Assembly: GCA_030390025.1 (NCBI GenBank)
Contig: CM059431.1
Location: forward strand, 107,696,001 to 107,760,000
Origin: Squalus acanthias
Taxonomy: Eukaryota
Direction: 5' to 3'
DNA length: 64,000 nt
This document shows positions 1,626-57,878 of this stretch, piece by piece. The notes beneath the pieces are model-generated. The model saw only the letters and a list, made by a program, of their open reading frames with translations, did no database searches and was not told the DNA's origin. Made by a program: the position numbers and the translations under genes. Within the stretch, counting starts at the first letter, position 1. Each line of letters begins with the position of its first letter.

Positions 1626-3932
1626 TAACCGGGCCAAGTGTTTGATTTGTATGTGGGAGAGCACTTTGGAGATAGTGACCACAATTCGGTAACTTTCACT
1701 ATTGCAATGGAGAGGGATAGGGCCATACGGCAGGGCAGGGTTTATAATTGGGGGAGGGGTAATTATGATGCGATTAGGCAAGAATTAGGGAGTATAAGAT
1801 GGGAACAGAAACTATCAGGGAAAGGCACAAACGAGAAGTGGAGCTTTTTCATGGAGCAATTACTGCGTGTCCTTGATAGGTATGTCCCTGTCAGGCAGGG
1901 AGGAAATGGCCGAGTGAGAGAACCATGGTTCACAAAAGAGGTTGAATGTCTAGTCAAGAGGAAAAAGGAAGCGTATGTAAGGATGAGAAAACAAGGTTCA
2001 GTTGGGTCGATTGAGGGGTACAAGGTAGCAAGGAATGAGCTAAAAAAAGAGCTTAGGAGAGCTAGGAGGGGGCATGAGAAGTCCTTGGTGGGTCGGATCA
2101 AGAAAAACCCCAAGGCTTTTTACTCTTATGTGAGAAATAAAAGAATGACCAGGGTGAGGGTAGGGCCGGTCAAGGACAGTAGTGGGAACTTATGCATGCA
2201 GTCAGAAGAGATAGGAGAGGTGATGAATGAATACTTTTCGTCAGTGTTCACCGAGGAGAGGGGCCATGTTCTTGAGGATGAGAGTGTGATAAAGGTGGAT
2301 AGGCTGGAGGTGGTAGATGTTCTGAGGGAAGATGTTTTAGCAATTTTGAAGAACCTGAGGGTCGATAAGTCCCCTGGGCCAGATGGGATATATCCTAGGA
2401 TTCTTTGGGAGGCAAGGGAGGAGATTGCAGAGCCTCTGGCTTTGATCTTTGGGTCCTCACTGTCCACGGGGATGGTGCCAGAGGACTGGAGAGTGGCGAA
2501 TGTTGTTCCTCTCTTCAAGAAAGGAAATAGGAATGACCCTGGTAATTATAGGCCGGTTAGTCTTACTTCGGTGGTTGGTAAGATAATGGAAAAGGTCCTG
2601 AGGGATAGGATTTATGACCATTTGGAAAGGGGCAACTTAATCAGGGATAGTCAACACGGATTCGTGAAGGGTAAGTCTTGCCTAACAAATTTGATTGAAT
2701 TCTTTGAGGAGGTAACTAAGTGTGTAGATGAAGGTAGAGCAGTTGATGTCGTATACATGGATTTTAGTAAGGCGTTTGATAAGGTTCCCCATGGTCGTCT
2801 CATGAAGAAAGTAAGGAGTTGTGGGATAGAGGGAAATTTGGCCGATTGGATAAGTAACTGGCTATCTCATAGAAGGCAGAGGGTGGTGGTGGATGGAACA
2901 TTTTCGGACTGGAGACCAGTTACCAGCGGTGTGCCACAGGGGTCGGTGCTGGGTCCTCTGCTGTTTGTGATTTTTATCAATGACTTGGAGGAGGGGACTG
3001 AAGGGTGGATCAGTAAATTTGCTGATGACACCAAGATTGGTGGAGTAGTGGATGAGGTGGAGGGCAGTTGTAGGCTGCAAAGAGACATTGATAGGATGCA
3101 GAGCTGGGCCGAAAAATGGCAGATGGAATTTAACCCTGATAAGTGCGAGGTGATTCATTTTGGTAGGGCAAATTTGAATAAGGATTACAGGGTCAACGGC
3201 AGGGTTCTGAGGAACGTGGAGGAGCAGAGGGATCTGGGGGTTCATATCCACAGATCTCTGAAGGTTGCCACTCAAGTGGATAGAGCAGTAAAGAAGGCCT
3301 ATGGTGTGTTGGCATTTATTAACAGAGGGTTTGAGTTTAAGAACCGTGAGGTTATGCTGCAACTGTACAGGACCTTGGTGAGACCACATTTGGAATATTG
3401 TGTGCAGTTCTGGTCACCTCACTATAGGAAGGACGTGGAAGCATTGGAAAGAGTGCAAAGGAGATTTACCAGGATGCTGCCTGGTTTGGGGGGGAGGTCT
3501 TATGAGGAAAGATTGAGGGAGTTGGGGCTTTTCTCTTTAGAGCGGAGGAGGATGAGAGGCGACTTAATAGAGGTTTATAAGATGATGAGGGGAATAGATA
3601 GAGTGGATGTTCAGAGACTATTTCCTCGGGTAGAGGCAGCTGTTACAAGGGGGCATAACTATAAGGTGCATGGGGGGAGATATAGAAGGGATGTCCGAGG
3701 TAGATTCTTTACTCAGAGAGTGGTTGGGGTGTGGAATGGACTGCCTGCTGTGATAGTGGAGTCGGACACTTTAGGAACTTTCAAGCGGTTATTGGATAAG
3801 CACATGGAGCACACCAGAGTGATAGGGAGTGTGATAGCTTGATCTTGGTCTCGGACAATGCTCGGCACAACATTGAGGGCCGAAGGGCCTGTAATGTGCT
3901 GTACTGTTCTATGTTCTATGTTCTATGTTCTA
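1626..3932 (+). mobile_element. CR1 LINE, 5'-truncated, young
   Basis: ORF2 followed by a short 3' UTR and a (TTCTATG)n tail at about 3907-3931. Confidence 0.95.
1638..3842 (+). CDS. CR1 ORF2 (end of endonuclease plus reverse transcriptase), 5'-truncated, no true start codon
   Basis: 734 open codons with SDH (endonuclease end), KSPGPDG, NYRPVSLTS, DFSKAFD, GVPQGSVLGP, KFADD and the CR1 C-terminal LERVQRRFT..FFTQRVV..WN motifs. Confidence 0.9.
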   Translation: MFDLYVGEHFGDSDHNSVTFTIAMERDRAIRQGRVYNWGRGNYDAIRQELGSIRWEQKLSGKGTNEKWSFFMEQLLRVLDRYVPVRQGGNGRVREPWFTKEVECLVKRKKEAYVRMRKQGSVGSIEGYKVARNELKKELRRARRGHEKSLVGRIKKNPKAFYSYVRNKRMTRVRVGPVKDSSGNLCMQSEEIGEVMNEYFSSVFTEERGHVLEDESVIKVDRLEVVDVLREDVLAILKNLRVDKSPGPDGIYPRILWEAREEIAEPLALIFGSSLSTGMVPEDWRVANVVPLFKKGNRNDPGNYRPVSLTSVVGKIMEKVLRDRIYDHLERGNLIRDSQHGFVKGKSCLTNLIEFFEEVTKCVDEGRAVDVVYMDFSKAFDKVPHGRLMKKVRSCGIEGNLADWISNWLSHRRQRVVVDGTFSDWRPVTSGVPQGSVLGPLLFVIFINDLEEGTEGWISKFADDTKIGGVVDEVEGSCRLQRDIDRMQSWAEKWQMEFNPDKCEVIHFGRANLNKDYRVNGRVLRNVEEQRDLGVHIHRSLKVATQVDRAVKKAYGVLAFINRGFEFKNREVMLQLYRTLVRPHLEYCVQFWSPHYRKDVEALERVQRRFTRMLPGLGGRSYEERLRELGLFSLERRRMRGDLIEVYKMMRGIDRVDVQRLFPRVEAAVTRGHNYKVHGGRYRRDVRGRFFTQRVVGVWNGLPAVIVESDTLGTFKRLLDKHMEHTRVIGSVIA

Positions 3933-10654: not shown

Positions 10655-11579
10655 AGTGTGTCCAAATATCTACTGCTAAACGTGGTCCACACCAAGGCTG
10701 CAATTTCACCAGCCGTGGTGAGTCCGGTGCCGCAGGAGTAGACAGCAGCCTCAAACCCTGCTCCTGTCTTCATCCCACATCCTCCAAGTGATTTTGCCCT
10801 GATTGGGCTTGTTAAGCCCGCCCTGCGAGGTTCCCGGCCAATTAAAAGGAAGCGGGTCTGATGACGTCATTTGATGGTTTCCTTAAAGGCACCATGTCCA
10901 CATTCATTTTGACAGTTCTGTTGTCAATGTTCTACAGTATTGAGGTGCTGCAAACACTGACAAGCACTGCACAAAAGTGCACGGCTGCACCCAGGCTCTC
11001 CCATGATTCTCTCCAAATGCTTTTGGAGAGAGTCACAGCACGCAGGGAGGTCCTCTTCCCTTCAAATGGGCAGAAGAGATCTCCCCAGGACACCAATGCA
11101 GCCTGGTTGCACCTTGTGCAAGAGGAAACAAGCAGGGATGTTGTCAGGAGGACCTGGCTGCAGTGGCGCAAACCTTTCAATGATCACAGTGGATCACGAA
11201 ACGTTACTGCAAAGCCACACTCAACCTCACCCTGCTGTGCCACTCATCACATCCCCATCACTCTGCCTTCCCTACCCTACTCCTGCACATCCTTACTCAC
11301 ACCAACTTACCTTGCACCTCCACCCATCCCTCTCTATCTATATTATCACTTCCCCATCTCACTAGCCTTCCCTCACACTCACCCTCATCCTAGTCCAATC
11401 ATACCAACTAACAACACACAAGGGTAGGCACTTGGGTGGTTTAGTCAATGTGTGTGTAAACTTTCTGTTAATGTGTTGTCAAGCATTAAAATCTTTATTT
11501 TCACTACTTTGCCTTCTTGGACCGATTTGTGTGCACCTTTGAAAGTGCCTCAGTGAGTTCCAGTGAATGGTGAGACTCC

Positions 11580-12424
11580 GGGCTGGATTTTCATTGACCC
11601 GTGGAGGTGGGTTTGGAGGCGTGTGGGGGGTTAAAGTTGCAGATTCGGGGGTCCCGAACCCATCCCGCCCCCAACCCGCCTCCATGCCAGTTTCGCTGGA
11701 GGCGGGTACCCGACCTGTGCTGGGACCCGCCTCCCCGAGGCGGGAAGGGGATTAGTGCCAATAAACTGCCTGTTAACAGGTAGTTAACAGGCAGTTTTTT
11801 GCCTAATCCCTATTTTGATTCGTGAAATGTGGGCTTCCCGACAAGTCCCAACCACGCCAAGTTAGCGAGGCGGACTGTGGGTCTGCAGGGGTTGGAGGGG
11901 TCGATATGTCCGGTGGGCAGGTGAGTGATGAGTGCATGTGTGCAGAGGAAAGTGTGTAAGGTAAGTGTAAAGTGTGGGAAAAAGTTTTACTTACATTAAC
12001 TTCCTCCTGCAGGTGTCAACCCTTCAGGTCTCGGGAGTCAGAAATCTCACCGGCACAGAAAGCAGAAAAGCCGTGGTGCTGTCAAAAACTGCAGCCTTCT
12101 GTTTTCTGTGCTGGAATGATTTCTAACTCAGCCTGAGAGGAAGGACTCAAGTTAGAAGACAGATTGTCAGTGTTTCACAGCTTCACAGAGCTGTCAAACG
12201 CTGATATTTCATCTGTCAAAAGCTCTTGACAGATGAAATGTCAATCTGTGACATCACCTGTTGCCGGGTGGCCCTTAATTGGCCTGCTGAGCCCACTGGG
12301 CGGGCTCAACAAGGTCAATCAAGTGAAAATACAGTGGGTTGGCCACAAGTCGATGGAGGTGCGACTACAACCCAAAAAGTGGGAGTCCCGCCTCCATCAC
12401 GTCCCCAGTATCAAAATCCAGCCC
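11580..12424 (+). mobile_element. Harbinger-type MITE, family A
   Basis: Perfect 12-bp TIR GGGCTGGATTTT / AAAATCCAGCCC; absent from the uninterrupted copy near 49945; homologous to 26418-27262 and 54830-55670. Confidence 0.85.
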
Positions 12425-12686
12425 ATAATTCCGCCGCCCCCCTCCCCCCCACCCCCGCAATGGTGATGAGTGTGAAAGAAATGCCTTGGATATTGTAGGG
12501 ATGCTTTATGGTGTTGGTGTGGGGTGGTGCCAAGCTGGTGCATCATGTGGCAGCCAGGGTGTAGTGTTAAGTGAAGCAAATCTGGACATGGTAAGGCAAT
12601 CCCTGACCTCATGGGCAGCAATGTGGTCAGGTGATGATGCCCTGTCTCCAGTATAGCATCAGTTGATTGCGGAGAAGGTTGGTGTG

Positions 12687-13132
12687 TGTTAGAGTAAAAA
12701 TTATAGGGCTTAAAGCAACAATGTAAAAGTTAAAGAATGTAAAAGTTAAAGCAACAATATAAAAGTTAAGGTAAATTCGTATAGACAGAATGGTTTCGCT
12801 GACATAGTGCGATGAGTAATGTCTGTGGTCAACATGTATACGTGCGAGACCCAATGTTTATAGTTTCGGAGGGAAGTAAAGTTTTTAGCTTAACGTGCAG
12901 TTTATAATTAGGCGCTTGTTGCTGGGGGAATGTGATTGGGTGAAGACATTTGTATGTAATGAATTGCGTAATCGACCCTATAATGTATAAAAGAAGTTTC
13001 AATACCACTGTAACAACGAGAAGTGAATCACTAGATTGCGGAGTCTATGCCTCTTCTCCCAGATCGCTCTGTTAAATAAACTGTGATCTTCTGCTTTGAG
13101 ACAGACTCGAGTGAATTCATTTTTCATCAACA
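12687..13132 (+). repeat. ERV 5' LTR (446 bp)
   Basis: TGTTAG..CAACA; TATAAAA at 12986-12992; AATAAA at 13075-13080; direct repeat of 18859-19305. Confidence 0.95.
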
Positions 13133-13134
13133 AT

Positions 13135-13152
13135 TGGCGTAGTCGGCAGGAT
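13135..13152 (+). promoter_or_regulatory. Primer binding site, tRNA-Ser
   Basis: TGGCGTAGTCGGCAGGAT, 2 nt after the LTR, is the exact complement of the vertebrate tRNA-Ser 3' end (ATCCTGCCGACTACGCCA). Confidence 0.9.
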
Positions 13153-13625
13153 GCTCCAGAACTGAAAGACTGCCCGCACCAGTGAACCCGGACGAGAAGT
13201 CAATTTTTACCGTCCAGAAATTGAGTCACCTGGGAAGGCGGAGGGACAGTGCCGTAGCATCACGAATCAAGTAAAGTCTGTGAGAGGTAGGAGAACACAG
13301 TTGTTGTGAAAATGTGGATCGCAAGTACTAAAGGGAACACTGTGTAGCGATAAATGTCGCGAAGGAATGAGTGAGTGACGAAACGACACGGACAAGGAGG
13401 GTGCCTGTCTCAAACACCTAGCTTGAGCTTGAATTAAGAGGACGTAGTCCCACGTGACGGCCAGGATCAAGTAGGCGTAGAGGCTCCAAAACACCCTGGG
13501 ATCGTGAAGTCAGCAAATATATATGTGTGTTGTGACTAATTAACCGCTTGAAGGTCTTTAAAGTATCAAGAACAAGCCCGAGTAGAGGAACTCAGCATTT
13601 GGTAAGACTGTAAGTTGGACTACAA

Positions 13626-15175
13626 ATGGCGTCGGGGAAGAAATAGAATGGAGACGAATGGGGTCCCTTACTAGGTTCTATGCAGACGACCGGAAGGGTT
13701 TAGTTGATAAGATGACGAAGGAGGGGTGGGACCCGCTCCAGAATCCGAAGGTAAAAGAGAGTGGTAGAGGGTCAAAAACAGAAAAGACAAAAAAGGTGGG
13801 GGTGATACTAGTAAACCAATTAGTCACATTAACTAATGAAAGGATTCACAAAATTTCATGTGTTCCCCCCCGAAGATTTTTGTTGGACTTATTAATATGG
13901 AACCCTGGTCAGACTGAGTTTTAAAATCCAGGGCATGGCTGTGGTCGGACCTCGTGACCGAGAGCCTGGCAGTTTCATTTCAGACTCTGGCAAGCTATCA
14001 GCTTGTGTATTCCGATGTCTGCAGCAGGAAGTTCACGAAACCAGACAGGACCTTTCCTTATGCATTACAATCAGGTCTACGCATAAGGCTTTCAAGGTGT
14101 TTGCTCAAATAATCAGCGGGGACATTGAGACTGGGTTGGCCCCCATCAACGGACCTGTCGGACAATAGGGAGCAGTTGGAGAACTGGCATGATACAATTA
14201 CCGGCCATCTAACATGATGGGCCAAGATCAGTACCTTTTGTTAAAATTCATCATGCCCAGATCAGACAATAGAAATGAGCTGATCTGAAGGGAGATTAGG
14301 ACGACCGGGAGGGTATAACTGGGAAGACCCAGCCATTCTCTCTCTCTCTCTGCCTGGATCCCGGTTCGCTCTGTCTGCCTGCCAGCAGCCCAGAAAGAAG
14401 ATGACCAGAAACTTCGCAGCCACATGTCAACGGCAGAAACAGAGTACAGGGCCAGGTTTTTCCATCCATTTCACCGGTGAGCATTATCTTCTTCTGGCTG
14501 TCGCAAGACAATTTTAGTTAGGCATAAGGGTAGGAATTAATGGGGATATTGCTAAAATTGTAATTTTAGGATTTTCCCTCGATGTGTCCGTTCTCCTCCC
14601 ATGTTAAGTGTAAAACCGTCTTCATATGATACTGTTTCTCTGTAGTTTTACTTCTGTAAATAAACATTGGTTTTCCTCGCACCAATCCATGGGTCTGTTC
14701 GTTTGTCCTTATTGCCGCTCGATAAGTCCTGGGCTCAGAACTAGGAAGGGGATAGCGATTCGCAACCGCACAGTGGGCAGGACAGCTCAGGAAAACATAA
14801 CTGGCTGACCTACAAATAAGCCCGAGACAAAAACCCCTTACACTAACAAGGTGCAGCAACTCCACACTAGACTTGCAAGTAAAAATGAAAGAATTCTGGA
14901 ATTAGAACAAGAGTTATTATTGTACAAAGGAGGCCAGACGGTCCTTGATGGGTACCGGCTGGACAAAACGGAACTATGGAACGAAAGGCGGGCACATTTG
15001 TGCACCTCAGTAAAAGTCCAGGGCTCCAAAAATGAGGAAGAGATGCCACCTCCTTACGCCCCAGAGGCATCAGCCCCTTCCATGGAAGACAGTGATGACG
15101 AAAACTTAAAGAAGAGATAAAGTTGTTAAAGGAAAAAGTAGCGTTGCTACAGATGGAACGTTTAATCAAAGGAGA
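13626..15175 (+). pseudogene. gag: gag N-terminal remnant split by a solo LTR
   Basis: ORFs 13658-13836 and 14843-15120 join in frame once the insertion is removed; coiled-coil-like segment and PPPY late-domain motif. Confidence 0.7.
13837..14842 (+). mobile_element. Solo LTR (1006 bp) of a second LTR-element family
   Basis: TGAAAGG..CCCTTACA termini, 4-bp TSD CTAA, TATAA near 14314, AATAAA near 14659. Confidence 0.85.
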
Positions 15176-16479
15176 CCGAGTCCCCTTTGAAAAAGTGATA
15201 AACTTTATTCTGGAAAGTCTGTCTCAAAAATAAACACAATGGGTTAAGAGAAAAACATAGCCATGTGGTTAAGCATAAAGTGCAGGAGAGAGAGAGAGAG
15301 CGATAAAGAAGGAAAAAGATTGATTATGCAGGCTAACCAATCTGAAAACTCAGCAAAGGAAGGGAAAAAAAACAGGGATTTGAAAGCCAGGAAAAGCTGC
15401 TGAGACACCGATGTACAAAAAAAGAGAAATTTAAAGTTTTACCGACATGGAAGTTATTTATGTCTGTGCCGAGACAAATAAAACACAAGATTTGCTGAAT
15501 GAAAGGAACCTTAAAAAAATGCTGGAATTTCATTTTGAGTGAAAGTGTTTTTAAAGTGTCAAAGTTATCCTGACTGTGAATGTTTAAGAAGTTACAGTAT
15601 TTCTTTTGTCTGAAAGTCTGTCTTTAAAAAGGTGTCTGTCATTTTTGTTTTAGCTCCACCCACTCTTTTGTACAGAGAGCTAAAAGCTGTTTAACCCTTT
15701 GAAGACTTGTCTTGAACGATGGACAAGTGTGTGTTGTTTTAAGTTTGTTAATTGTTTTACAAAAGATAAGATTGAGCCTTGAAGTCACAGTTGCCAATGT
15801 GCCTGGAAGAAAATGAATTTGAATGTTTACAAGGCATGGGTAATTGTTTCTTTGTTAATATGGTTTCTTTATTTTCTAAGTGATACTGGTTAGTTTAAAA
15901 AAAAATTGATCTGGATTGAATTGGAGTTATTGAGGTCAATTAACCTATTAAAACCAGACTTTCATTGTGGCCACGGTGAAATTCTGGTCGGTGTAAATTT
16001 GTGTAGACCGCATCGAATAAGATTGTGCAACCAGAATTGAAACAAAACTTCAAACTACAATTTAAGTTAAGCTGGTGTGTAAAAACTGAGAAGAAAAACA
16101 AAAAGTTTGTTTAACAAAAGATTAAGTTTCAGTCTAATATTTAACCTTGGAGTCACGGTTGCTATGGTGAAATCCTCCAAAGCAATTTGTTTAAATGTGA
16201 AAAACTAATTTTTCTCCAGTTGTAAGCAACAACTTTGGTATTGCTGAATGAAATTTAAAGATATTGGACATTATTAAATTTAAGTGTCTTAATTTTAAGT
16301 TAATATTTCCCCACAGTGACAGAAGGAAAATTAAGATTTGATAAATTAACCCCTTGGGCTTTTAAACAGAACTATATCAGATAGCCGGAAAGCAAAATGG
16401 GAAACAATCCTCTTACCAGGAGATGGATCAGTATTAATACAAAAACATACTGGAATAAACCTAGCATCCGGAATATTAA

Positions 16480-17004
16480 CAGAAGGGTATGAGCATAGTT
16501 GCTAAGTAAAAATAGAGGAAGAAATGTACATGACATTGATAAAGTAGTAATGCATGCTGTTCGGTGGTAATTGTTGCAGAAATCTCCTGGGCAGATTCCC
16601 ATCGAGCAGACGGAATATTACTATGAACAAGAAATGGTTGAAAAAAACGTAGCCAGTGCACAGGTGGAAGAAATAGATATTAGGAAATTACACAAAAAGA
16701 ACCCAAACGTAGTCAAGGCAGCCCCTTTAAAAAGAGGGGGAACGTTACAAATTTCCACAGCCAAGTACCAAGCTTTTAGCCCCTTAGAAAAACAAACAAT
16801 ATTGAAAGATTTGGGAAGTTGGGTCATATGGCAAAAGAATGTAGGGCCCCCAAACAAAACCGACCGGTATGTGCTAATTGCGCAAGACCAGGACTTTCAA
16901 CCGAGAGGTGTTGGACAAAAAAGGAAGAGCCAAACCAGACCGGGACCATTGATATGTATCAAAAGATCCTGCAGTATGTAAAGGAACAGGGTTGCGGCAA
17001 CTGA
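16480..17004 (+). pseudogene. gag: gag capsid-start and nucleocapsid remnant
   Basis: KYQAFSPLE (capsid-start-like) joined by a deletion to GKLGHMAKEC and CANCARPGLSTERC, i.e. two CCHC-type knuckles, both damaged. Confidence 0.75.
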
Positions 17005-17459
17005 CTAGCGGCGGCCCCCATCAAGAGGGAGAAGGAAGATCCCAGAGTCTATGTACCGGCACTGTTAGGGGGGCAGCAGTGCGATATGTTAGTAGACACG
17101 GGAGCTTCTGTATCCATTACCAATTTACCCATTCCCCTCATAAACAAAGGATAGACATAGTGGGGTTGGGAGGGGAGCATTTACATGCATTTAAAAGTGA
17201 GGTACAAGTATTGGAATTAGCGGGACGACTATTACCTGCACAATTTTATGTATGCCCAAACAGTGAGGGGAATATCTTAGGAATAGATTTGTTAAAAGAA
17301 TTTAATTTGTTAATAGATTCACGACAAGGAAAGTTAACCTGGGTACAGGGAGACGGGAACATAGTAAACTGGGGAAAACCACTTTGCCATTTGGCAACAG
17401 TAGGAAGTGCAAAACTCGTGGCCCGGGACTGGAAGGAGGAGAGGATGTGGGTCCTCTAA
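17005..17459 (+). pseudogene. pro: Retroviral aspartic protease, frameshifted
   Basis: DPRVYV..GGQQCDMLVDTGAS (D at 17095) in the gag frame, then IVGLGG and NILGIDLL in another frame. Confidence 0.85.
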
Positions 17460-17553
17460 AGGATAAGCTCCGAAGGAAAATAGAATCTTCAAGCAACAAA
17501 GCGGTTCGGTTGGCGATATAGCCTTTGGGACATTGTTAACATAAAGTGATAAG

Positions 17554-18715
17554 ATGAACGTGTTACGTAATATCATGTGTAGTTTGCTAGTTTGTATAAT
17601 CATAATATGTAGCCTCGGGAGGACTCAGGCTAGAGTACCCCCACGGGCCAAAAGAGGGTTACGGGTGAACACCTGTTTATATATGTCATACACATATGCC
17701 AAGAGAGTTGATGTTTCCAGCTGTTGGGTCTGCGCCCATGTCCTCACGGACTCGGAGGAAGGAGTCCCCCTACAACCAATCCCACTTAGTGATGATGAGA
17801 CGGTCAGTTGGATGTTTGGAGTTAGAGCAGGATGCACAAGTGTGGGCTGTTATGAAGCCAAGACAGACGGCAGAATTATAGCAAAGCTCCAACATCATGG
17901 GTACAACCCAGAATATTGTAATGGGTGGACACGGTATTCCTATCTACCACCGTTCCTGAGAACGAGGAGTAAGAAGGGACAAAGGGGGGGACTATGTCTC
18001 GCAAAGAGGGGACGACCGACAGATCCTATTGTGGGCTACAGTAACTGCACATATAACATTGCCTTGCCTGGTGAAACGGGTAGTGTGAAGCTCCCATCAC
18101 TAAACCGAAGCGGTGACTTCTCAGTACAATGGGACCCCGCAGAGGTAAATAAGTATACCTCCTACAACGGGACTCATTTCGTGTGCGGTCATAGGGCTTA
18201 TCCCTGGTTGCCCCGAGAATGGAGCGGGTAAATTGGCAAGGGAATCCATTAACCTGGCCTCTGTCTTGGAGCAGGTGGCCAACGATACAGCTGAAGCCCT
18301 AGTTAAGGTTAATGCTGAGATGGTAGCCCTCCGCACAGTAGCTCTACAAAATCGGATGGCCCTTGACTATGTGTTAGCGGAAAAAGGGGGAACCTGCGCA
18401 CTAATAGGTACAGAATGTTGTACCTATATACCAGATAACTCGGAAGCAATAACTAACTTGGCAGAACACATACAGGAAGAAGTAAAGAAATTAAAACAAC
18501 CTCCGGGATCCACCCTTTGGGGCTAGGCAACTGGATGGTTGGGATCACTCGGGACATCAGTAGTACAAGGATTGATTTTGTTCTTTGCTATAATATTAGT
18601 GATGTATGGTCTGGCCCTATTGTTAAAATGTTGTTGCGCTCAAATGTCACGGACTGCTGTAAGTGTCATAATGGTTAATCAAGTGACTCCCGGAGAGAGA
18701 GATATGTGGATATGA
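17554..18715 (+). pseudogene. env: Gamma-type env with SU/TM junction deleted
   Basis: Signal peptide, RAKR, CWVC (CXXC); TM part with ISD LQNRMALDYVLAEKGG and CX6CC; premature TAG at 18524-18526, then an in-frame membrane anchor ending at TGA 18713-18715. Confidence 0.9.
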
Positions 18716-18847
18716 GTCCCTAAACAAGGATGCCACAGTCTGACTAACGGACTGTGAGCCCCTGGAATGTAAACATATCTACTTACATTACCAGAAATCC
18801 GTATGATGCTGGTTCCCTTTCACAAAAGGAGTTTTGATCAGGGACTA

Positions 18848-18858
18848 ACAGGAGGGAT
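18848..18858 (+). promoter_or_regulatory. Polypurine tract
   Basis: ACAGGAGGGAT immediately before the 3' LTR. Confidence 0.6.
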
Positions 18859-19305
18859 TGTTAGAGTAAAAATTATAGGGCTTAAAGCAACAATGTAAAA
18901 GTTAAAGAATGTAAAAGTTAAAGCAACAATGTAAAAGTTAAGGTAAATTTGTATAGACAGAATGGTTTCGCTGACATAGTGCGATGAGTAATGTCTGTGG
19001 TCAACATGTGTACGTGCGAGACCCAATGTTTATAGTTTCGGTAGGGAAGTAAAGTTTTTAGCTTAACGTGCAGTTTATAATTAGGCGCTTGTTGCTGGGG
19101 GAATGTGATTGGGTGAAGACATTTGTATGTAATGAATTGCATAACCGACCCTATAATGTATAAAAGAAGTTTCGATACCACTGTAACAACGAGAAGTGGA
19201 TCACTAGATCGTGGGGTCTATGACTCTTCTCCCAGGGCGCACTGTTAAATAAACTGTGATCTTCTGCTTTGAGACAGACTCGAGTGAATTCATTTTTCAC
19301 CAACA
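18859..19305 (+). repeat. ERV 3' LTR (447 bp)
   Basis: About 15 differences from the 5' LTR by hand alignment. Confidence 0.95.
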
Positions 19306-21331
19306 GTGTGGATGTTGGTGAGGCTGGTGTGCCCCGTGATGCTGGTGTTGGGGCTGATCGCGCTGGGATTCTGAGGACCAAGGTGAGATTATTTCAAGGG
19401 CACCAATGCAGATGGAATCGATGGCAGGTGAGGTTGAGATGGCAGAAGTAATCTGTCAATGTTGAGATAGATTGTTCCAGGGAGGTGACAGTGGATAGAG
19501 AGATTACTCCAAACACTGCAAAAGTGCATAAAGCTCAAAAGTGGGTTCCAAATCATTAATGCTCCAGCTTCTAAGATTAGGAAGTGACCAGCTGTGAAAT
19601 GGTAGGTTTTAGACCCCTTTTGCAAGTATCAACTATTCAGAGCAATCCACAGTCATTGAGAACCCGACATACTTACCTGACGTGATAGCCGCTCTCCGGG
19701 AACCTCGTTGAAAACCTGGTAAAATGTTAAGTACATGGGAAAATGGTTATTAACTGCCTTTTAATAAGCTTTTAGCTATCTAAATTGGCTGACCCGCCGC
19801 ATGATGCCAGGTCTGTTCAGGGATGACAGACCCGACAGTTGGGAAACTGACAAGGAGACGGGTTTACAGCGGGATACCGACCCGCTGTCAATCTTTGTGA
19901 TTTTGACAGCGGACCCACCTCCAAACCCGCACTCTGAGCGCCGGTAAAATTCTGGCCCAAGTGTCCGGATGTCAAATCAGGCCCGCCACGTAAATTGAGT
20001 TTGACATCCCAGGGATAGAGTATATGCAAATTCATGCTAAGCAGGCACCAGATCCTTCTAATAGGAAGTGTAGAATTGCAAAGATTGTGTTGGTTTAGAA
20101 GTGTGCTTGAAATTGTGTAAACTCACTAACCTTTGGTCATAACCTATGAAATTGGGAAAATGTGTTGGAGATCTATTCTAATCCATTAACAACTATAACT
20201 GCAGTGTGAGATCAACGTAGAATAAAGTTGAAAAGTGACATTGCTTTTGAAAGGCAGCGATCTTTCGAAAACGCTTCCAAATAAATACTGTAATTGTAAT
20301 GAAAAGTGAGTGGAATTGACTATCTTTTAATCAAATCTACACAGAATCAAATATATCTTTATTTAATCCAAACTATGTTTGTATGAAGAAGAAAATGTGA
20401 TTGTGAACCTCTAATTAGTTTTATGTCAAGCAAACTGAAAGGTTTATGACTCTTAATCTAATGTACTTATTGTCAAAGGTATTGCAGTACAATTTATGCA
20501 AGCAGGAAGCAGGCAACCTTTAAAATTAAGCACAATACATTGTAGATCAAAAGTATGATAATTAAGTTGCTACATGTAACTAAATGAAGGAATTATTGTT
20601 TATTTTTGTAAAAGGTCAAAATCTCAATTCTTTGTCCTTCCTTTACCCCGCACCTCTTTAATACAACAATTTTGTATTTCATCTCAATCAAGTTCCTTTT
20701 CCCCTTATGTCAATGGGACTTCAGCAACAGAAAATGCTTCAATCATGAGCGATGCATTAGTGCCATCATTGGGGTAGGTTGCTCAGGTTCTCTCGGCGTA
20801 ATTCATCCGAAATCGGCGCAAGAGATCACAGAATTCTAAGGGCAAATTACACATTCAGCGCAACTCGCGTTTACGCGATCTTTTGCGCTCGTTTAAAAAA
20901 TTAGCATAAAGCTCAAAAGTGGGTTACAAATCATTAACGCTCCAGCTTCTAAGATTGGGAAGTGAACAGCTGTGAAATGGTAGGTTTTAGACCACTTTTG
21001 CAGCTGTCAACTATTCACAGTCATTGAGAACCCGACATACTTACCTGACGTGATAGTCGCTCTCCGGGACCCTTGTTGAAAACCTGGTAAAATGGTAAGT
21101 ACATTGGAAAATGGTTCTTAACTACCTTTTAATAAGCTTTTAACTATCTAAATTGGCTAGAAGTGGGCCCTGCCCACAAAACAGTCCCCTACCCCCTACC
21201 CCCGGGATGAATTAATCATTATTGGGAGTTTCCGCTAATTGCGCTCGTTTGCGGGTCTTTGGGGAGTCTTCAAAAATTAAGCTGGATCTTTTGGGCGCAA
21301 GGACAATAATAGGAAATTTTTAAAAGCTTTA

Positions 21332-28895: not shown

Positions 28896-31432
28896 GGTTC
28901 GGAATTTGTGGTCAGCGGCGAAGCGATGGCAATCGCCACTGACCTCGAAGAAAGCTGCCCACAAAGACCTTACAATCTCTGTAGTGAAAACTTCAGCTTT
29001 CTTGAGGTTAAATTGATTGTAGTGCTGTCAAAAGGGGATCCTGAGCATAGAGCAACAGTGATGTCATCAAGCTGTCTAAGCAACCAATCACATTGAAGAA
29101 TTCTCATAGACAGCAAACCAGGAAATAAAAAGCACTGAATATCATTCATGTTTTAATTTTTTTTACAGAGAGCAAAATAAAGATTGAGACATACACATGG
29201 GGTTAAGCTAGAAGCAGAAATATCAGAAACAAACGTTAAAAAAATTATTTAAAAAATATTTTTATTATTTTAAAAATCTAGTAATTTTTATCATAATGGA
29301 GAAATTTGACATTCCACAAATATAAAATTAGTTTTTCAGGGCCAGAACAATTGTTCAGCAGTCAATAAGCTCTTAAAACCCCAGTTACACCTCTTCAAAA
29401 CAAGGCTTAACTTTTTATGGGGTTTTTAACTGCGATATTAGAGTGGAAAGACAAAGGGCTGGATTTTGCAGGTGGTCAGCGGGTGCGGTCGGTGGCGGGT
29501 CGGGTGGGACCGTTTTTTTTTCCCCCAGCGGGTCGGGACCTCACTGTAAACCCACCACCATGCACCTTTACCAAATGTCAGGTCTCTCAGTGCTGAGCAG
29601 ACCTGACAAGCCGTGGTGAGGAAGGCAATTAAAATCATTAATGACTTGCTTACAGCCGCTTATCAATGTTTTTTCCCAGCTTTTTGGATTTGACAGGTCA
29701 CCCACCGGTTTCCCGCTGTGCCTAGACCTCGTCTGTGAAGCTGAGGCGGGAGGGCAGTGGTCATTGATGAGCTGACAGCTTCAAATGTCAACTCAAAGCT
29801 CCCAGCTGATTGAGAAATGTTCCCTTAACCACTAGCTTCTCTAAACTGTATTTCCACAACAGATTCACCATGCTGCAAGTCTTTACACAAGTCTCCATCC
29901 AATCTGACCTCATTACCTCTCCCAACATTGACAGATTGCTTCTGTCATCTCTGCTTCACCTGCCATCTACTCCATCAGCATGGGTGCCCTTGAATTTTTC
30001 TCACCTTGGTCCTCAGAATCCCACCACGATCAGCCCCAACACCAGCATCACCAGGCACACCAGCAGCACCAACAACAACACCAAACTTCTCTGCAATCAA
30101 CTGATGCGACACAGGACAGAGGGCATCAGCACCCGACCACATTGCTGCCTAGGAGGTTAGGGATGGCCTCATCATGGCCAGATTTACTTCACTTGACGCT
30201 GTACAACCTGGCTGCCACAAGATGCGCCAGGTTGGCACCACCCCACACCAACACCATAAAGCATTCTTACAATGCCAAAGCCATTCCTTTCACACTCATT
30301 ACCATTGTGGGTGATACAATTATGTCTCACCATTCACTGCAACTCACTAAGCTACTTCCAAAGGTGCACACAAATCTGTCTAAGAATGCAAAGTGTTGAA
30401 AATAAAGGTTTCAATGTTTGACAGCATATTAGCAGAAACTTCACATGAACATTGCATAAAACACCCAAGTGCCTACCCTTGTGTGTTGTTAGTTGGTATG
30501 ATTGGACTAGGATGAGGGTGAGTGTGAGGGGTGGCTAGTGAGATGGGGATGTGATAATGTAGATAGAGAGGGATGGGTGGAGGTGCAAGGTAAGTTGGTG
30601 TGAGTAAGGATGTGCAGGAGTAGAATCGGGAAGACAGAGTGATGGGGATGTGATGAGAGGCACAGCAGGATGACGTTGAGTGTGGCTTTGTACTAACGTT
30701 TCTTGATCTACTGAGATTATTGAAACGTTTGTGGCACTGCACCCATGTCCTCCTGACCACATCCCTGCATGTGACCTCCTCTGTAATGTGCAAGCAGGCT
30801 GTGTTGGTCTTCTGGGGAGGTCTCTTCCGCCCATGGGAAGGGAAGAGGACCTCCCTGCGTGCTGTGACTCCCTCCATAAGCATATGGAGGGAGTCATGGG
30901 AGAGCCTGGGTGCAGCCGTGCACCTCTGTGCAGTGCTTGTCAGTGTTTGCAGCACCTCAATGCTGTAGAACACTGACAGCACAAATGTCAAAATTAATTT
31001 GGCCATGGTCCCTTTAAGAAAACTGACTGTTGACGCATCATTAAATGATGTCATCAGACCCGCTTCCTCTAATTGGCCGGGAAACACACTGGGCGAGCTT
31101 AACAAGCCCAATCTTGGGAAATTCATTTCAGAGGCCGGGATGGAAACAACAGCGGGGTCGGGACCCGCTACCGACGTCACCTGCCATGGACCCACCGAGA
31201 TTAGTAATATCGCGGCAAAGTTTTCGTCAGTTCAAGTGATTTCACTGATTGCCGGCTCTGGGGAGTTCCACAGTGCAGCCTATGGCGGAGCAGGGAATGA
31301 CTGACCACAACTTCTGGATTTCCACCTTTATCAGTGCACACGCTAAATCCTGAAGTTACGGTCAGTTTCAGAGGGGTAATGACGGTGTGTGCTGACAGTT
31401 ACGCCGTCATCACCACCGCAAAATCCAGGCCC
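28896..31432. mobile_element. Older MITE hosting a Harbinger derivative
   Basis: TIR-like GGTTCGGAATTT / AAAATCCAGGCC(C) bracketing 29456-31217. Confidence 0.45.
29456..31217 (-). mobile_element. Non-autonomous Harbinger derivative with Myb/SANT exon
   Basis: Left TIR GGGCTGGATTTT; minus-strand APRLSHDSL..RREVLFP..RRTWVQCHKRFNNL; inverted homologue of 49064-50823. Confidence 0.85.
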
Positions 31433-35809: not shown

Positions 35810-36979
35810 TGGCCGGAATTTTCAGGGAGGTAAGCGGGCGGGATTGGTGGCGGGTCGGGTGGGAAATTTGATTTTTTTGATCAACCTGCCGCAACGTGCC
35901 TTTCCCAATGTCGGGACTGCCAGCGCTGAGCAGACCCGACAGGCAGTGGCGGGTGACCCAATTAAACTCATTAGCTTCTAGTTGACAGATCATTAACAGG
36001 ATTTTTTAATTTACCTTTTCACTTTAACTTCATGGCCACGGGAACCATGCTGTCACACTCACCTCCATTGCAGGGATACCGTTATGTCTCACCATTCACT
36101 GCAACTCACTAGGCCACTTCCAAAGGTGCACACAAATTTGTCCAAGAACGCAAAGTGGTGAAAATAAAGGTTTCAATGTTTGACAGCACATTAACAGAAA
36201 TGTTAAAAGAACATTCTATAAAACACCCAAGTGGCTACCCTTGTTAGTTGGTATGATTGGACTAGGATGAGGGTGAGTGTGAGGGGTGGCTACTGAGATG
36301 GGGAAGTGATAATATAGATAGAGAGGGATGGGTGGAGGTGCAAGGTAAGTTGGTGTGAGTAAGGATGTGCAGGAGTACGGTAGGGAAGGCAGACTGATGG
36401 GGATGTGATGAGAGACACAGCAGGATGAAGGTGAGCGTGGCTTGGCAGTAACATTTTGTGATCTAATAAGATCATTGAAAGGTTTGCGCCACTGCACCCA
36501 GGTCCTCCTGACCACATCCCTGCTTGTGCCTTCCTGTGCAATGTGCAACTCGGCTGTGTTGGTCTTCTGGGAAGGTGTCTTCTGCCCATCGGAAGGGAAG
36601 AGGACCTCCCGGCATGCTGTGAGTCTCTCCATAAGCATATGGAGGGAGTCATGGGAGAACCTGGGTGCAGCCCTGCACCTCTGTGCAGTGATTGTCAGTG
36701 TTTGCAGCACCTCAATGCTGTAGAACATTGACAGCACAAATGTTAAAAGAAAGTCGGCCATGGTCCCTTTAAGGAAACCGACTGATGACTGATGACGTGC
36801 CATGAATGACGCCACTAGACCCGCTTCCTCTAATTGGCCAGGGAAATGCGCTGGGCGGGCTTAACAAGCCTAATCAACGTAAATTCATTTTCCAGAGCGG
36901 GATGGAGCCAGCAGCGGGGTCAGGACCCGCCACCAACGTCGCCCGCACTGGACCCGCCGAGGTAAGCAAAATCCAGCCC
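35810..36979 (-). mobile_element. Non-autonomous Harbinger derivative with Myb/SANT exon, further deleted
   Basis: Right TIR AAAATCCAGCCC; APRFSHDSL..RRTWVQWRKPFNDL; lacks the Gln/His-rich block of its sister copies. Confidence 0.85.
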
Positions 36980-48572: not shown

Positions 48573-50985
48573 GGCCCGGATTTTGCGAGGCTGATGACGA
48601 CATACGCACAGCGCATGCGCGAAAACCTGGAACTTGCGACCCGTCAAGGTTCGCGGATCCACCGAACCGAAAAAAAAACACCTTCGCTGGGGCAGAGTGG
48701 GGCCCAACTACTGCCCAGCAAATGTCCACAAAACGCTTACGCCTGGTAAAAGCAGACGTAGGGCCTGCGTTCACCAGCGTAAGGGTTCATATACCTGTTA
48801 AATTAAAAATGTTAAAATAAAAAATCATCCACGAACATTTAAAATTAGTTTACGTAAAACTTTGGCCTGGATTAAAATATTTAAAATTATTTTTCAAAAA
48901 GTTACATTTTTATTGTAACTGCTTCAGTAAAGGGACTTTTAATTAAATGTGAAAATGGGAACATTTATTTTTTATCCCAGATGTGTAAATTCTTCAATTA
49001 TTTGGGGCTTCCTTTGGTTGTCATTGAGGGATTCCATTCGGAAATGACAGCAATGGAAGCCTCGGTCGCGATTTTGCTGACCTCGGCGGGTCCAGGGTGG
49101 GCGATGTTGGTGGCGGGTCCCGGCCTCGCTGCTGGCTCCAGCCCGCTGTCCAAAATGGATTTCCCTTGATGGGACTTGTTAAGCCCCGCCCTGCGGGGTT
49201 CCCGGCCAATTAGAGGAAGCGGGTCTGGTGACGTCATTTGATGACGTGTCATCAGCCGGTTTCCTTAAAGGGACCGTGGCCAAATTGATTTTGACAGTTG
49301 TGCTGTCAGTGTTCCACAGCATTAAGGTGCTGCAAACACTGACAAGCACTGCACAAAGGTACAGGGCTGCACCCAGGCTCTCCCATGACTCCCTCCATAC
49401 GCTTATGGAGGGAGTCACAGCACACAGGGAGTTCCTCTTCCCTTCTCATGGAAGAGACCTCCCCAGGAGATCCATACAGCTTGTTTGCACATTTCAGAGG
49501 AGGTCACAAGCAGGGATGTCGTCTGGAGGACCAGGCTGCAGTGCCACAAACCTTTCAATGATCTCAGTAGATCACGAAACGTTAGTCCAAAGCCACACTC
49601 AACCTCATCCTGCTGTGCCACCCATCAAATCCCCATCACTCTGCCTTCTCTACCGTACTCCTGCACATCCTTACTCACACCAACTTACCTTGCACCTCCA
49701 CCCATCCCTCTCTATCTACATTATCACATCCCCATCTCACTCGCCACCCCTCACACTCATCCTAGTGAAATCATACCAACTAACAACACACAAGGGTAGG
49801 CACTTGGGTGTTTTATGCAATGTTCAAGTAAAGTTTCTGTTAATGTGCTGTCAAACATTGAAACCTTTATTTTCAACACTTTGCATTCTTGGACAGATTT
49901 GTGTGCACCTTCGGAAGTGGCTTAGTGAGTTGCAGTGAATGGTGAGACATAACGGTAGCCCCCGCAATGGTAAGGAGGGTGAAAGGAATGGCTTGGCATT
50001 GTAGGAATGCTTTATGGTGTTGGTGTGAGGTGGTGCCAACCTGGCGCATCATGTGTCAGCCAGGGTGTACAGCCTCAAGTAAAGTAAATTTGGCTATGGT
50101 GAGGCCATCCTTGGCCTCCCAGGCAGCAATGTGCTTGGATGCTGATACCCTGTGTCCTGTGCAGCATCAGTTGATTGCCGAGAAAGTTGGTGTTGTTGTT
50201 GTTGATGCTGGTGTGCCTGGTGCTGCTGGTGTTAGGGCTGATAATTGTGGGATTCTCAGGACCAAGGTGAGAGAGTTTAAAGGGCATCCATGCTGATGGA
50301 ATAGATGGCAGGTGATGTACAGATGACAGAAGCGATCTGTCAATGGTGAGAGATGTAATGAGGTGGAGACTTGTCTAAAGACGTGCAGCATGGTGAATCT
50401 GTTGTGGAAATGCAGTGAGGAAGAGCTTGTGGCTGAGGGAAGATATCTCTAAGGTGGGAGTTTTTACTTTACATTTGAAGCTGTCAACTCAACAGCTGAT
50501 TCAATGGCCACTGAACTCCTGCCTCAGTTTGATAGACGTGGTCCACGACCAGCATGGACCCTGTGGGCGAGCTGTCAAATGCAGAAGATGAGCCAAAATT
50601 CATTCTTAAGTGGCTCTAAACAAGCCACTAATTACCTGAATTGGGTCCCCCGCTGTGAACCCGCCGCTGCCTGTCCGGTCTGCTCCGCACTGACAGACCC
50701 GACATCGGGGAAAGGCGCACGGCGGCGGGTTCACAACAGGGTTCTGACCTGCTCGGGAAAAAAAATTTCCCCACCCGACCCACCACCGATCGCACCCGCT
50801 GACCCCCCCACAAAATCCAGCCACCCTTTCTGATAGGAGGACCTGGCCCAAACCGCCTGCGTCCCTGGGATCCGTGGGCCTTTCCGCAGGTGTACACCTG
50901 CAGGCCCAGGACCCGAACTCTCCAAAGCGCAGGAGTCAGTAGGTAGGTTCGTCTTTTTTTTCGGGTCGAAGTCCTACTCCGGCCC
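48573..50985. mobile_element. MITE hosting a Harbinger derivative
   Basis: GGCCCGGATTTT ... CCGGCCC ends; internal motifs shared with 24042-24781 (GCGCATGCGC, CCTGGTAAAAGCAG). Confidence 0.5.
49064..50823 (+). mobile_element. Non-autonomous Harbinger derivative with Myb/SANT exon
   Basis: TIR-like GGTCGCGATTTT / AAAATCCAGCCA; frameshifted APRLSHDSL..CHKPFNDL; full-length homologue of 29456-31217. Confidence 0.85.
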
Positions 50986-54829: not shown

Positions 54830-55670
54830 GGGCGATTTTGCCAGCCCTGGAGAAGCGGTTATGGAGGCGGGACTGCCGGGAAAATGGCAGAAACTGGGAG
54901 CGGGTACCCATCCCGCCCCCAACCCGCCTCCGTGCCATCTTCCCAGGAGGCGGGTACCCGACCCGCGCCGGGTCCCGTCTCCTCGAGGCGGGAAGGGGAT
55001 TAGTGCCAATTAACTGCCCGTTAACAGGTAGTTAATTGGCAGTTTTTTGGCTAATCCCTATTTTGAGCTCTAAAGTGAGGGCTTCCCGACGGCTCCGAAC
55101 CTCGCCAGGGTCAGCGAGGCGAGCCGTGGGTCTGCGGGGGTCGGAGGGGCCGAAATGTCCGGTGTGCAGGTGAGTGATGAGTGCAAGTGTGGAGAGGTAA
55201 GTGTGTGAGGTGAGTCTAAAGTGTTTTAATAAGATTACTTACCTTTGCTTCTTCCTCCAGGCTTCATCCCTTTAGGCTGCGGAGCTGCCTCATCTCACCG
55301 GCAGAGAAAACAGAATGGCCGCTGCATTCTTAAATGCTGCAGCCTTCTGCTTTCTACTCAGGAAAGCTTTCTAATTGAGTCTTGAGTAAAGACTCAACTT
55401 AGAAGACAGATTGTCAGTGTTTGACAGCTTCACAGAGCTGTCAAACGATGACAATTCATCTGTCAAAAAATCTTGACAGATGAAACGCCATACGCTGACG
55501 TTCTCTGTCACCGGCTTTCCCTTAATTGGCCTGCGAAGCCCGCTGGGCGGGCTTAACAAGGTCAATCAAGGGAAAATAGCATGGGTTGGCCGGACGTCGA
55601 TGGAGGCGGAACTAAAACCCGACAAGCAGCAGTCCCGCTTCCATCACGTCACCATTGATAAAATCACCCC
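54830..55670 (+). mobile_element. Harbinger-type MITE, family A
   Basis: GGGCGATTTT / AAAATCACCCC ends; possible TSD CAT; homologous to 11580-12424 and 26418-27262. Confidence 0.85.
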
Positions 55671-57254: not shown

Positions 57255-57407
57255 TTGGGGGAGAATTTCAGTTGGTTAGCGCCTCCCGTTAGCGTCTGGC
57301 GGGGGCGAGGCAAAACTAACGCCACACGCCAAATCCAGTCGCCCCTTAGCACCGCCGTTAACAGTTAACGCCTGGGGCTTTAGCACCAGGCAGATTTTGA
57401 CGTCAGT

Positions 57408-57878
57408 GCCCGCTATCCTGGCAGCAGTCACGATGCCTTCATCCTGCGCCAACCCGGTGTTCCAGCACTCTTCCAGCCGCCACATCAAGCTCGCAGCTGG
57501 TTGGTTGGAGACAAGGGCTATCTGCTCTCCACCTGGCTCATGACTCCTCTCCGCAACCCCAGCACTCCTGCCCAGCACTTATATAATGAGAGCCATGCCG
57601 CCGCCAGGAACATCATCGAGCAAACCATCGGAGTGCTCAAGCAACGGTTCCGCTGCCTTGACCACTCGGGAGGAGCCCTCCAGTACTCGTCGGAGCGGGA
57701 GTCCCATTTTGTCATGGTCTGCTGCATGCTCAACAACATGGCCATCATGAGGGCCCAGCCCTTGCCACAAGGGATTGCGGGACCACCTCAGGAGGAGGAA
57801 GAGGGAGAGGAGGAGGAGGACGAGGACAAGGAGGAAGAGGAAGTTGAGGAGGAGGAGGAGGAGGAGGAACAGGAGTGA
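57408..57878 (+). pseudogene. Harbinger (HARBI1-like) DDE transposase, C-terminal half
   Basis: [55 protein letters not shown] with an acidic tail; the N-terminal half with the first catalytic Asp is missing. Confidence 0.92.

What the first reader, a model, noticed from the sequence alone, without database searches (positions are those of the whole stretch)
12687..19305. Mosaic shark ERV: tRNA-Ser PBS and 5-bp TSD, two zinc knuckles, gamma-type env, no pol
Seen: exact 18-nt Ser PBS, GTGTG TSD, two CCHC-like motifs, CXXC/ISD/CX6CC env, and protease running almost directly into env. Known: a Ser primer and 5-bp TSD fit class III (ERV-S-like) elements, whereas gammaretroviruses usually have one knuckle and 4-bp TSDs. 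Inference: a poorly described fish retrovirus lineage. The interior is heavily deleted while the LTRs are about 97% identical, which suggests it was already defective and was moved in trans by a helper.
Basis: partly seen in the sequence, partly recalled or inferred. Interest (0 to 1): 0.7.

Follow-up and report, generated by a model that had tools for sequence, protein, structure and literature searches.

The report
Dead snakehead-like shark retrovirus relic
This is a real but long-dead retroviral insertion in a cartilaginous-fish genome that most likely belongs to the already known snakehead-retrovirus-like group, whose normal traits explain the 'odd' mix of features; it is one copy of a repeated family with many gutted members.

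Summary
The provirus is real: LTRs 431/446 identical, 5-bp TSD, and an 18-nt PBS identical to the tRNA-Ser PBS of XtERV-S. RT core, RNase H and integrase are absent. Env is gamma-type but broken. Neither zinc knuckle is intact here. The trait mix is not anomalous: it fits the SnRV-like group (clade Huo), not ERV-S and not gamma. The published SnRV-like elephant-shark CmiERV lineage I has the same PBS, the same first 7 LTR bases and the closest TM (47/65 residues by hand count). The protease matches a metagenome provirus with a foamy-leaning RT (21/33 identical), not an epsilon-like one. Related copies are covered across all 30 bins in 4 of 4 runs and carry several shared internal deletions, so defective members of the family probably spread in trans. 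Whether this locus's own large deletions predate insertion is untested; its small lesions fit decay in place. Two non-coding segments interrupt gag; one is absent from related copies and may hold a pol scrap. Verdict: new member of a known kind; modest interest.

The parts
12682..12686 (.). left target-site duplication (5 bp), inside a high-copy host repeat
12687..13132 (+). 5' LTR, TG...CA, poly(A) signal at 13075
13135..13152 (+). primer binding site, tRNA-Ser(AGA/TGA), 18 nt; identical to that of XtERV-S and CmiERV lineage I
13626..13858 (+). probable 5' end of gag (matrix-like), broken; assigned by position only, no database hit
   Evidence: no match to relatives' Gag
13859..14808 (.). non-coding segment interrupting gag; boundaries uncertain; AATAAA at 14659; origin unexplained
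14809..15113 (+). gag piece with a heptad-like stretch and a PPPY late-domain motif (15046)
   Evidence: related copies join its end to 16694
15114..16693 (.). 1,580-nt segment absent from some related copies; AT-rich (29-38% GC over 15133-16532), non-coding
   Evidence: joint 15113->16694 in 4 of 4 runs
16368..16502 (+). possible displaced remnant of the RT tether/connection region (tentative)
   Evidence: 2 of 150 block shuffles reach the score
16724..16810 (+). start of capsid (by position and a recalled motif); rest of CA deleted
   Evidence: P0003 residues 1-107 have no match in the window; no PDB hit
16813..17001 (+). nucleocapsid: half of knuckle 1 (16813-16842) and knuckle 2 without its His (16870-16911)
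17002..17004 (+). in-frame TGA between gag and protease (read-through arrangement)
17005..17440 (+). aspartic protease (DTG at 17095), frameshifted, plus linker; RT-RNase H-integrase deleted after it
   Evidence: an X8 contig leaves the window at 17440
17554..18715 (+). gamma-type env: signal peptide, SU with CXXC, break at ~18230 (furin site and fusion peptide missing), TM with ISD and CX6CC, premature stop at 18524-18526
18849..18858 (+). polypurine tract
18859..19305 (+). 3' LTR
19306..19310 (.). right target-site duplication (5 bp)

Best explanation
A coding-dead provirus of the SnRV-like group (clade Huo) in a cartilaginous fish. Its ancestor primed reverse transcription with tRNA-Ser, made Gag-Pol by reading through an in-frame stop, packaged RNA with a two-knuckle NC, used a gamma-type Env and made 5-bp duplications on integration (PBS, stop, knuckle remnants, env motifs and TSD are shown; the working virus is inferred). 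The family multiplied in the germ line and threw off many internally deleted forms that kept LTR, PBS, leader and PPT and were copied by the enzymes of intact members (inferred from shared joints). This locus is most likely one such gutted, recombined genome, inserted about 1.7% of sequence divergence ago, which then gathered its point lesions in place (inferred; about 60% that the big deletions predate insertion).
For: Same 18-nt PBS, same first 7 LTR bases and 47/65 TM residues shared with CmiERV scaffold 2, which is lineage I and clusters with SnRV by Pol, against a different PBS and 36/65 for the epsilon-like lineage II copy (translation and counts by hand). Protease N-half 21/33 identical to locus L007 (z 18.3) against z 3.0 for epsilon-like L008. 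L007 RT scores foamy 160 > MLV 142 bits; control L008 scores MLV 172 > foamy 118. L007 has a knuckle, a GPY-type motif and no dUTPase hit, as Chong 2014 describes for SnRV/Ovex1-related ERVs. Closest Gag-Pro in 1.84 billion representatives is a devil-ray protein with two intact knuckles. Family: 30 of 30 bins covered in 4 of 4 runs, two of them only 209-255 Mb; deletion joints 14017->14068 (4 of 4 runs), 18253->18356 (3 of 4), 17105->17186 inside protease (2 of 4), 16535->17165 (1 of 4), with contig depths up to 626.
Against: No RT survives, so placement rests on protease, PBS, LTR ends and env; no tree was built and SnRV itself was not compared. The CmiERV comparison is by eye. Env is a poor marker: L001-L003 (58% in TM) are closer than L007 (39-41%) and their class is unknown. 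SnRV has one knuckle and I saw one in CmiERV-I and L007; this element had two. L006's apparent PBS is not Ser. The 5' gag pieces match no relative. Observed stops/frameshifts are compatible with decay after insertion (expected about 2 stops and 3 indels), and the env stop and the lost His are not seen in the family's contigs in 4 of 4 runs. Several joints have sides under 30 nt and were called at 85% likeness; depth is not a copy number. One X8 contig (depth 36) follows the protease and leaves at 17440, so this pol junction is not universal in the family.
Confidence: 0.72

Rival explanations
1. Same lineage, but the provirus inserted intact (autonomous) and lost CA, pol and part of env, and gained the two segments, in place.
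For: Small lesions match the LTR clock; two point lesions are private to this copy; the LTR clock could mean 17-79 My at rates of 1e-9 to 2.2e-10 per site per year (the slower rate is from Han 2015); no shown sharing of the three junctions (one search lists only part of its tables).
Against: Three large deletions and two kb-size interruptions in 5.7 kb of interior against one 1-nt gap in 892 nt of LTR; every cis-signal is spared; the 1,580-nt segment has no TSD or terminal repeats, which suits a template switch better than a later insertion; other deleted forms of the family are shared between runs.
Confidence: 0.3
2. An epsilon-like (class I) fish ERV that happens to use tRNA-Ser and a 5-bp TSD.
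For: Two knuckles and read-through are epsilon traits; gamma-type env; NCBI names the closest env 'PABLB-like'.
Against: Protease matches the foamy-leaning L007, not epsilon-like L008; all 15 crocodilian ERV1 families have 4-bp TSDs; the epsilon-like CmiERV lineage II has another PBS.
Confidence: 0.1
3. An ERV-S-like (class III proper) element like XtERV-S with a class I env.
For: Identical Ser PBS, 5-bp TSD, TGA read-through, TGT...ACA ends and class I TM in XtERV-S.
Against: XtERV-S, ERV3 and ERV4 have no zinc knuckle; HERV-S/L-like elements are reported from tetrapods; the nearest pol-bearing relative found has no dUTPase hit.
Confidence: 0.08

Closest known systems
CmiERV lineage I (scaffold 2), elephant shark, SnRV-like (Han 2015, PMC4422223)
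   Same: 18-nt Ser PBS, LTR start TGTTAGA, knuckle-bearing NC, heptad-rich Gag, gamma-type env with 47/65 TM residues shared (by eye)
   Different: Has full pol, one visible knuckle, LTR about 830 nt against 446; no interrupting segments seen; TSD not given in the supplement
Snakehead retrovirus / SnRV-like clade / clade Huo (PMC1224870, PMC6001957, PMC4977317, PMC12193657)
   Same: Single-frame gag-pro-pol with read-through, zinc knuckle, position between epsilon and spuma-like viruses
   Different: SnRV has one knuckle, accessory ORFs and an Arg primer (recalled, not checked)
XtERV-S, Xenopus class III ERV with class I env (PMC8278194)
   Same: Identical Ser PBS, 5-bp TSD, TGA read-through, class I TM, families of deleted copies
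   Different: No zinc knuckle, has dUTPase, ERV-L-like gag and pol
Mobula hypostoma XP_062926799.1 and Scyliorhinus canicula XP_038662064.1
   Same: Gag-Pro with two knuckles, 36% over 124 columns; env 38% SU, 49% TM
   Different: Automatic annotations only; the ray protein has no stop between gag and protease
Metagenome locus L007/L006 (intact pol and env)
   Same: Protease 21/33 identical, in-frame stop, knuckle, gamma-type env
   Different: One knuckle, TAG stop, non-Ser PBS, TM only 39-41% identical

Membership tests
SnRV-like ERVs (clade Huo) | RT/Pol clusters with SnRV | not testable with these tools
   No RT in the locus; SnRV sequence not held. Indirect: protease partner L007 has a foamy-leaning RT
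SnRV-like ERVs (clade Huo) | Protease closer to non-class-I relatives than to epsilon-like ones | tested here: met
   z 18.3 and 6.5 (L007) against 3.0 and 3.2 (L008); one sequence per side
SnRV-like ERVs (clade Huo) | Zinc knuckle in Gag (some members) | tested here: met
   zf-CCHC hit and a second degenerate knuckle; two rather than SnRV's one
SnRV-like ERVs (clade Huo) | gag and pro-pol in one frame with a stop between | tested here: met
SnRV-like ERVs (clade Huo) | PBS and LTR ends as in the chondrichthyan member CmiERV-I | tested here: met
   1 exact PBS hit in the three-ERV dataset, in lineage I
SnRV-like ERVs (clade Huo) | TSD length typical of the group | tested here: inconclusive
   No paper found stating it (0 hits); unclassified crocodilian families have 4 or 5 bp
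ERV-S-like / ERV3 / ERV4 (class III) | 5-bp TSD | tested here: met
ERV-S-like / ERV3 / ERV4 (class III) | tRNA-Ser PBS (ERV-S) | tested here: met
ERV-S-like / ERV3 / ERV4 (class III) | No zinc knuckle in Gag | tested here: not met
ERV-S-like / ERV3 / ERV4 (class III) | dUTPase in pol (ERV3, XtERV-S) | not testable with these tools
   pol deleted; none in L007
Class I (gamma/epsilon, ERV1) | 4-bp TSD | tested here: not met
Class I (gamma/epsilon, ERV1) | 1-2 knuckles, read-through, gamma-type env | tested here: met
   not exclusive to class I
Class I (gamma/epsilon, ERV1) | Class I protease/RT | tested here: not met
   protease only, against one epsilon-like control
Non-autonomous ERV copied in trans | Same inactivating deletions at two or more loci with different flanks | tested here: inconclusive
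   Other deletions are shared in the family; this locus's three junctions not shown either way
Non-autonomous ERV copied in trans | Intact cis-signals (LTRs, PBS, PPT) with dead genes | tested here: met

The most novel reading that the evidence does not exclude
An undescribed elasmobranch branch of the SnRV-like clade with a two-knuckle NC and Ser primer that expanded to high copy number across several species mainly as pol-less, env-keeping chimeric genomes which swapped in pieces of other elements. It would mark two knuckles as the ancestral state of clade Huo (two, then one in SnRV, then none in ERV-S/ERV-L) and show shark genomes to hold a large non-autonomous retroviral load that pol-based surveys miss.
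Probability: 0.3. Interest if true: 0.5.

Novelty: new member of a known kind. Interest (0 to 1): 0.3.

Why it matters
SnRV-like viruses have one known exogenous member and their non-Pol traits are thinly recorded: my searches found no paper giving TSD and knuckle data for fish members (0 papers) and 5 papers naming SnRV, shark and ERV together, in a library that lacks most subscription journals and Repbase. This locus adds a 5-bp TSD, Ser primer and two-knuckle NC to that picture and points to a repeated shark family that RT-based screens would overlook. It is a useful data point for retroviral classification, not a new mechanism.

Tried and rejected
Own-genome search: no genome held, so no copy or helper search was possible. 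Protease C-half and P0003 against longer proteins: no hits. Viral contigs: nothing. Nested solo LTR at 13881-14510 (TG...CA with a 5-bp repeat): 3 such pairs seen against a mean of 1.07 in 200 shuffles, P(>=3)=0.12, so not accepted. A second myristoylated gag start near 16398: dropped, no support and another frame there matches pol weakly. Decayed RT core or RNase H in the AT-rich segment: scores at shuffle level. A class I reading from remembered capsid/protease motifs: dropped. The open 225-codon SU frame as a kept host gene: about 0.3 likely to stay open by chance at this age (my estimate rates), not pursued. ESM Atlas on P0003 gave generic gag-protease clusters only. Depth differences along the element (15248-16517 about 5-20 times its neighbours) are not used as copy numbers. 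Earlier findings: nothing relevant. Shark mutation-rate search: 0 papers. No fold or complex prediction was run.
Full report
Observation. The element spans 12687-19305. Its LTRs match at 431 of 446 aligned bases with one 1-nt gap, K2P 0.035 (95% interval of the raw difference 1.9-5.5%). The 5' LTR end is fixed by the PBS and the 3' LTR start by the polypurine tract, and only a 5-bp duplication (GTGTG) fits both flanks; chance is about 0.001. The target is a high-copy host repeat whose other copies show the empty site. The 18-nt PBS is identical to that of XtERV-S, assigned there to tRNA-Ser(AGA/TGA). Rfam and ARAGORN found nothing in the window. The host was not identified: no genome is held and run names were coded; the named relatives are a catshark env, a devil-ray Gag-Pro and an elephant-shark ERV.

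Anatomy. After a 470-nt leader comes a broken gag: a 5' piece (13626-13858, by position only), a non-coding stretch (about 13859-14808), a piece with PPPY (14809-15113), a 1,580-nt segment, about 30 codons of capsid start, then NC. The ray protein P0003 has about 100 capsid-side residues and two whole knuckles before its protease; its first 107 residues have no counterpart here. Knuckle 1 is cut in half and knuckle 2 lacks its His. An in-frame TGA separates gag from a frameshifted protease. Two Pol queries found no RT core, RNase H or integrase; protease-to-env distance is about 3.5 kb shorter than in an intact relative. Env has CXXC, ISD and CX6CC but lacks about 40-48 residues around the furin site and fusion peptide, changes frame there and stops before its anchor. 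No whole gene product can be made.

Lineage. Papers read: Jern 2005 (passages): two knuckles in epsilon and HERV-H, one in SnRV, none in ERV-L/spuma; SnRV shares read-through. Chong 2014 (passages and supplement 1; one supplement was a scan and unread): ERV1 4-bp TSD, ERV3/ERV4 5 bp and no knuckle; SnRV/Ovex1-related ERVs unclassified, some with a knuckle or GPY/F. XtERV-S paper (passages, section 10, supplement search): Ser PBS, 5-bp TSD, class I TM, no knuckle. Han 2015 (first 10,000 of 14,366 characters and all of supplement 1): lineage I clusters with SnRV, II and III with epsilon. Xu 2018, Naville 2016, the 2025 SnRV paper and the zebrafish ERV survey (passages). PMC10435555 and PMC10699275 (passages) added nothing. 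Our PBS occurs once in Han's three sequences, in lineage I, whose LTR also starts with the same 7 bases. Translating by eye, its TM shares 47 of 65 residues with ours (70 of 104 over a longer stretch) against 36 of 65 for lineage II; the lineage III sequence has no env or PBS to compare. A metagenome scan with the TM gave 13 loci from 287 candidate stretches. Only L006/L007 matched our NC-protease (E 2e-10): 21 of 33 residues identical in the N-half, z 18.3, against z 3.0 for L008. L007's RT scores higher to foamy (160 bits) than to MLV RT (142); L008's the reverse (172 against 118). L007 has one knuckle, a GPY-type motif and no dUTPase hit. Together this places the element most likely in the SnRV-like group. 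Against: no RT here, no tree, one control per side, env does not follow pol among the 13 loci, and the knuckle number differs from SnRV.

Family and spread. Eleven runs of five studies and six coded organisms plus one unlabelled hold 18-41% of the element's words. I laid 4 of the 11: 30 of 30 bins were covered in each, including runs of 209 and 255 Mb, so the family is repeated and shared by several species (inference). High-depth protease and env contigs from organisms B and D differ from this copy by 1.5-3.7%, near half the LTR distance, which suggests a burst at about the time of this insertion. Of the joints, 15 were shown and 104 were not. Internal ones: 14017->14068 (4 of 4 runs), 14366->14416 (1), 15113->16694 (4), 16535->17165 (1), 17105->17186 (2), 18253->18356 (3). 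Joints that cut protease or env at contig depths of 269-626 in runs of 2-3 Gb imply defective forms that were multiplied, hence complemented in trans (inference; several joints have short sides, likeness was set to 85%). The 15113->16694 joint shows that 15114-16693 is missing from some relatives; it has no TSD or terminal repeats, is AT-rich and ends in a 45-codon stretch like the RT tether of L007 (score 55; 2 of 150 shuffles reach it), so 'mosaic' is fair and 'no pol' may have a small exception.

Defective before or after insertion. At 1.7% per lineage, 2,443 coding nt should gather about 42 substitutions, 2 stops and 3 small indels (the indel rate rests on one event). That matches what is seen, and the env stop and the lost His are private to this copy. 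So the point lesions do not show prior defect. Three large deletions and two kb-size interruptions with all cis-signals spared do suggest it, but none of the three junctions was shown shared; one X8 contig follows the protease and leaves at 17440, so other members continue differently there. I put prior defect at about 60%. Age is 17-79 My for rates of 1e-9 to 2.2e-10, poorly constrained.

Verdict. Real, dead, and a new member of a known if thinly described group; helper-driven spread of deleted ERV copies is itself well known (e.g. the deleted XtERV-S copies). The two-knuckle NC and the apparent size of the family are the points worth a follow-up. Interest 0.3.

Noticed in passing
L007:797-1026 (and 3350-3579): The gag frame of this intact-looking provirus carries a 230-nt, 78% identical copy of its own RNase H region, in frame, where capsid would be expected.
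   Followed up: partly
L008:2931-7856: Epsilon-like pol of 1,642 residues with a long insert between protease and RT and a Cys-rich insert between RNase H and integrase.
   Followed up: no
L002/L003:142-4689: Env with the closest TM among the 13 loci (58%), followed by LTR, a non-Ser PBS and a heptad-rich one-knuckle Gag of undetermined class.
   Followed up: partly
window 10866-12686 + 19306-19467, 29917-31231, 36075-36860, 49151-50351, 54834-55665: The provirus sits in a high-copy host repeat present several times in the window, with Myb/SANT-like reading frames by eye (recalled motif); probably a Harbinger-related element.
   Followed up: no
window 1629-3842: Open 737-codon LINE ORF2 piece with RVT_1 (E 3.7e-37), CR1-like by recalled motifs.
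   Followed up: partly
window 57384-57878: DDE_Tnp_4 (Harbinger-type) transposase fragment, E 4.3e-24, next to an acidic triplet repeat.
   Followed up: partly
window 17554-18231: The env break leaves an open 225-codon frame with signal peptide and SU only, which would be secreted if expressed; expression not tested.
   Followed up: no
window 15953-15988 and 14543-14578: Two 36-nt imperfect palindromes inside the interrupting segments.
   Followed up: no
window 12687-13132, 18859-19305: The longest listed LTR contigs differ from this copy by 10-14% while protease/env contigs differ by about 2%, hinting at several LTR subfamilies on one interior (longest records only).
   Followed up: no
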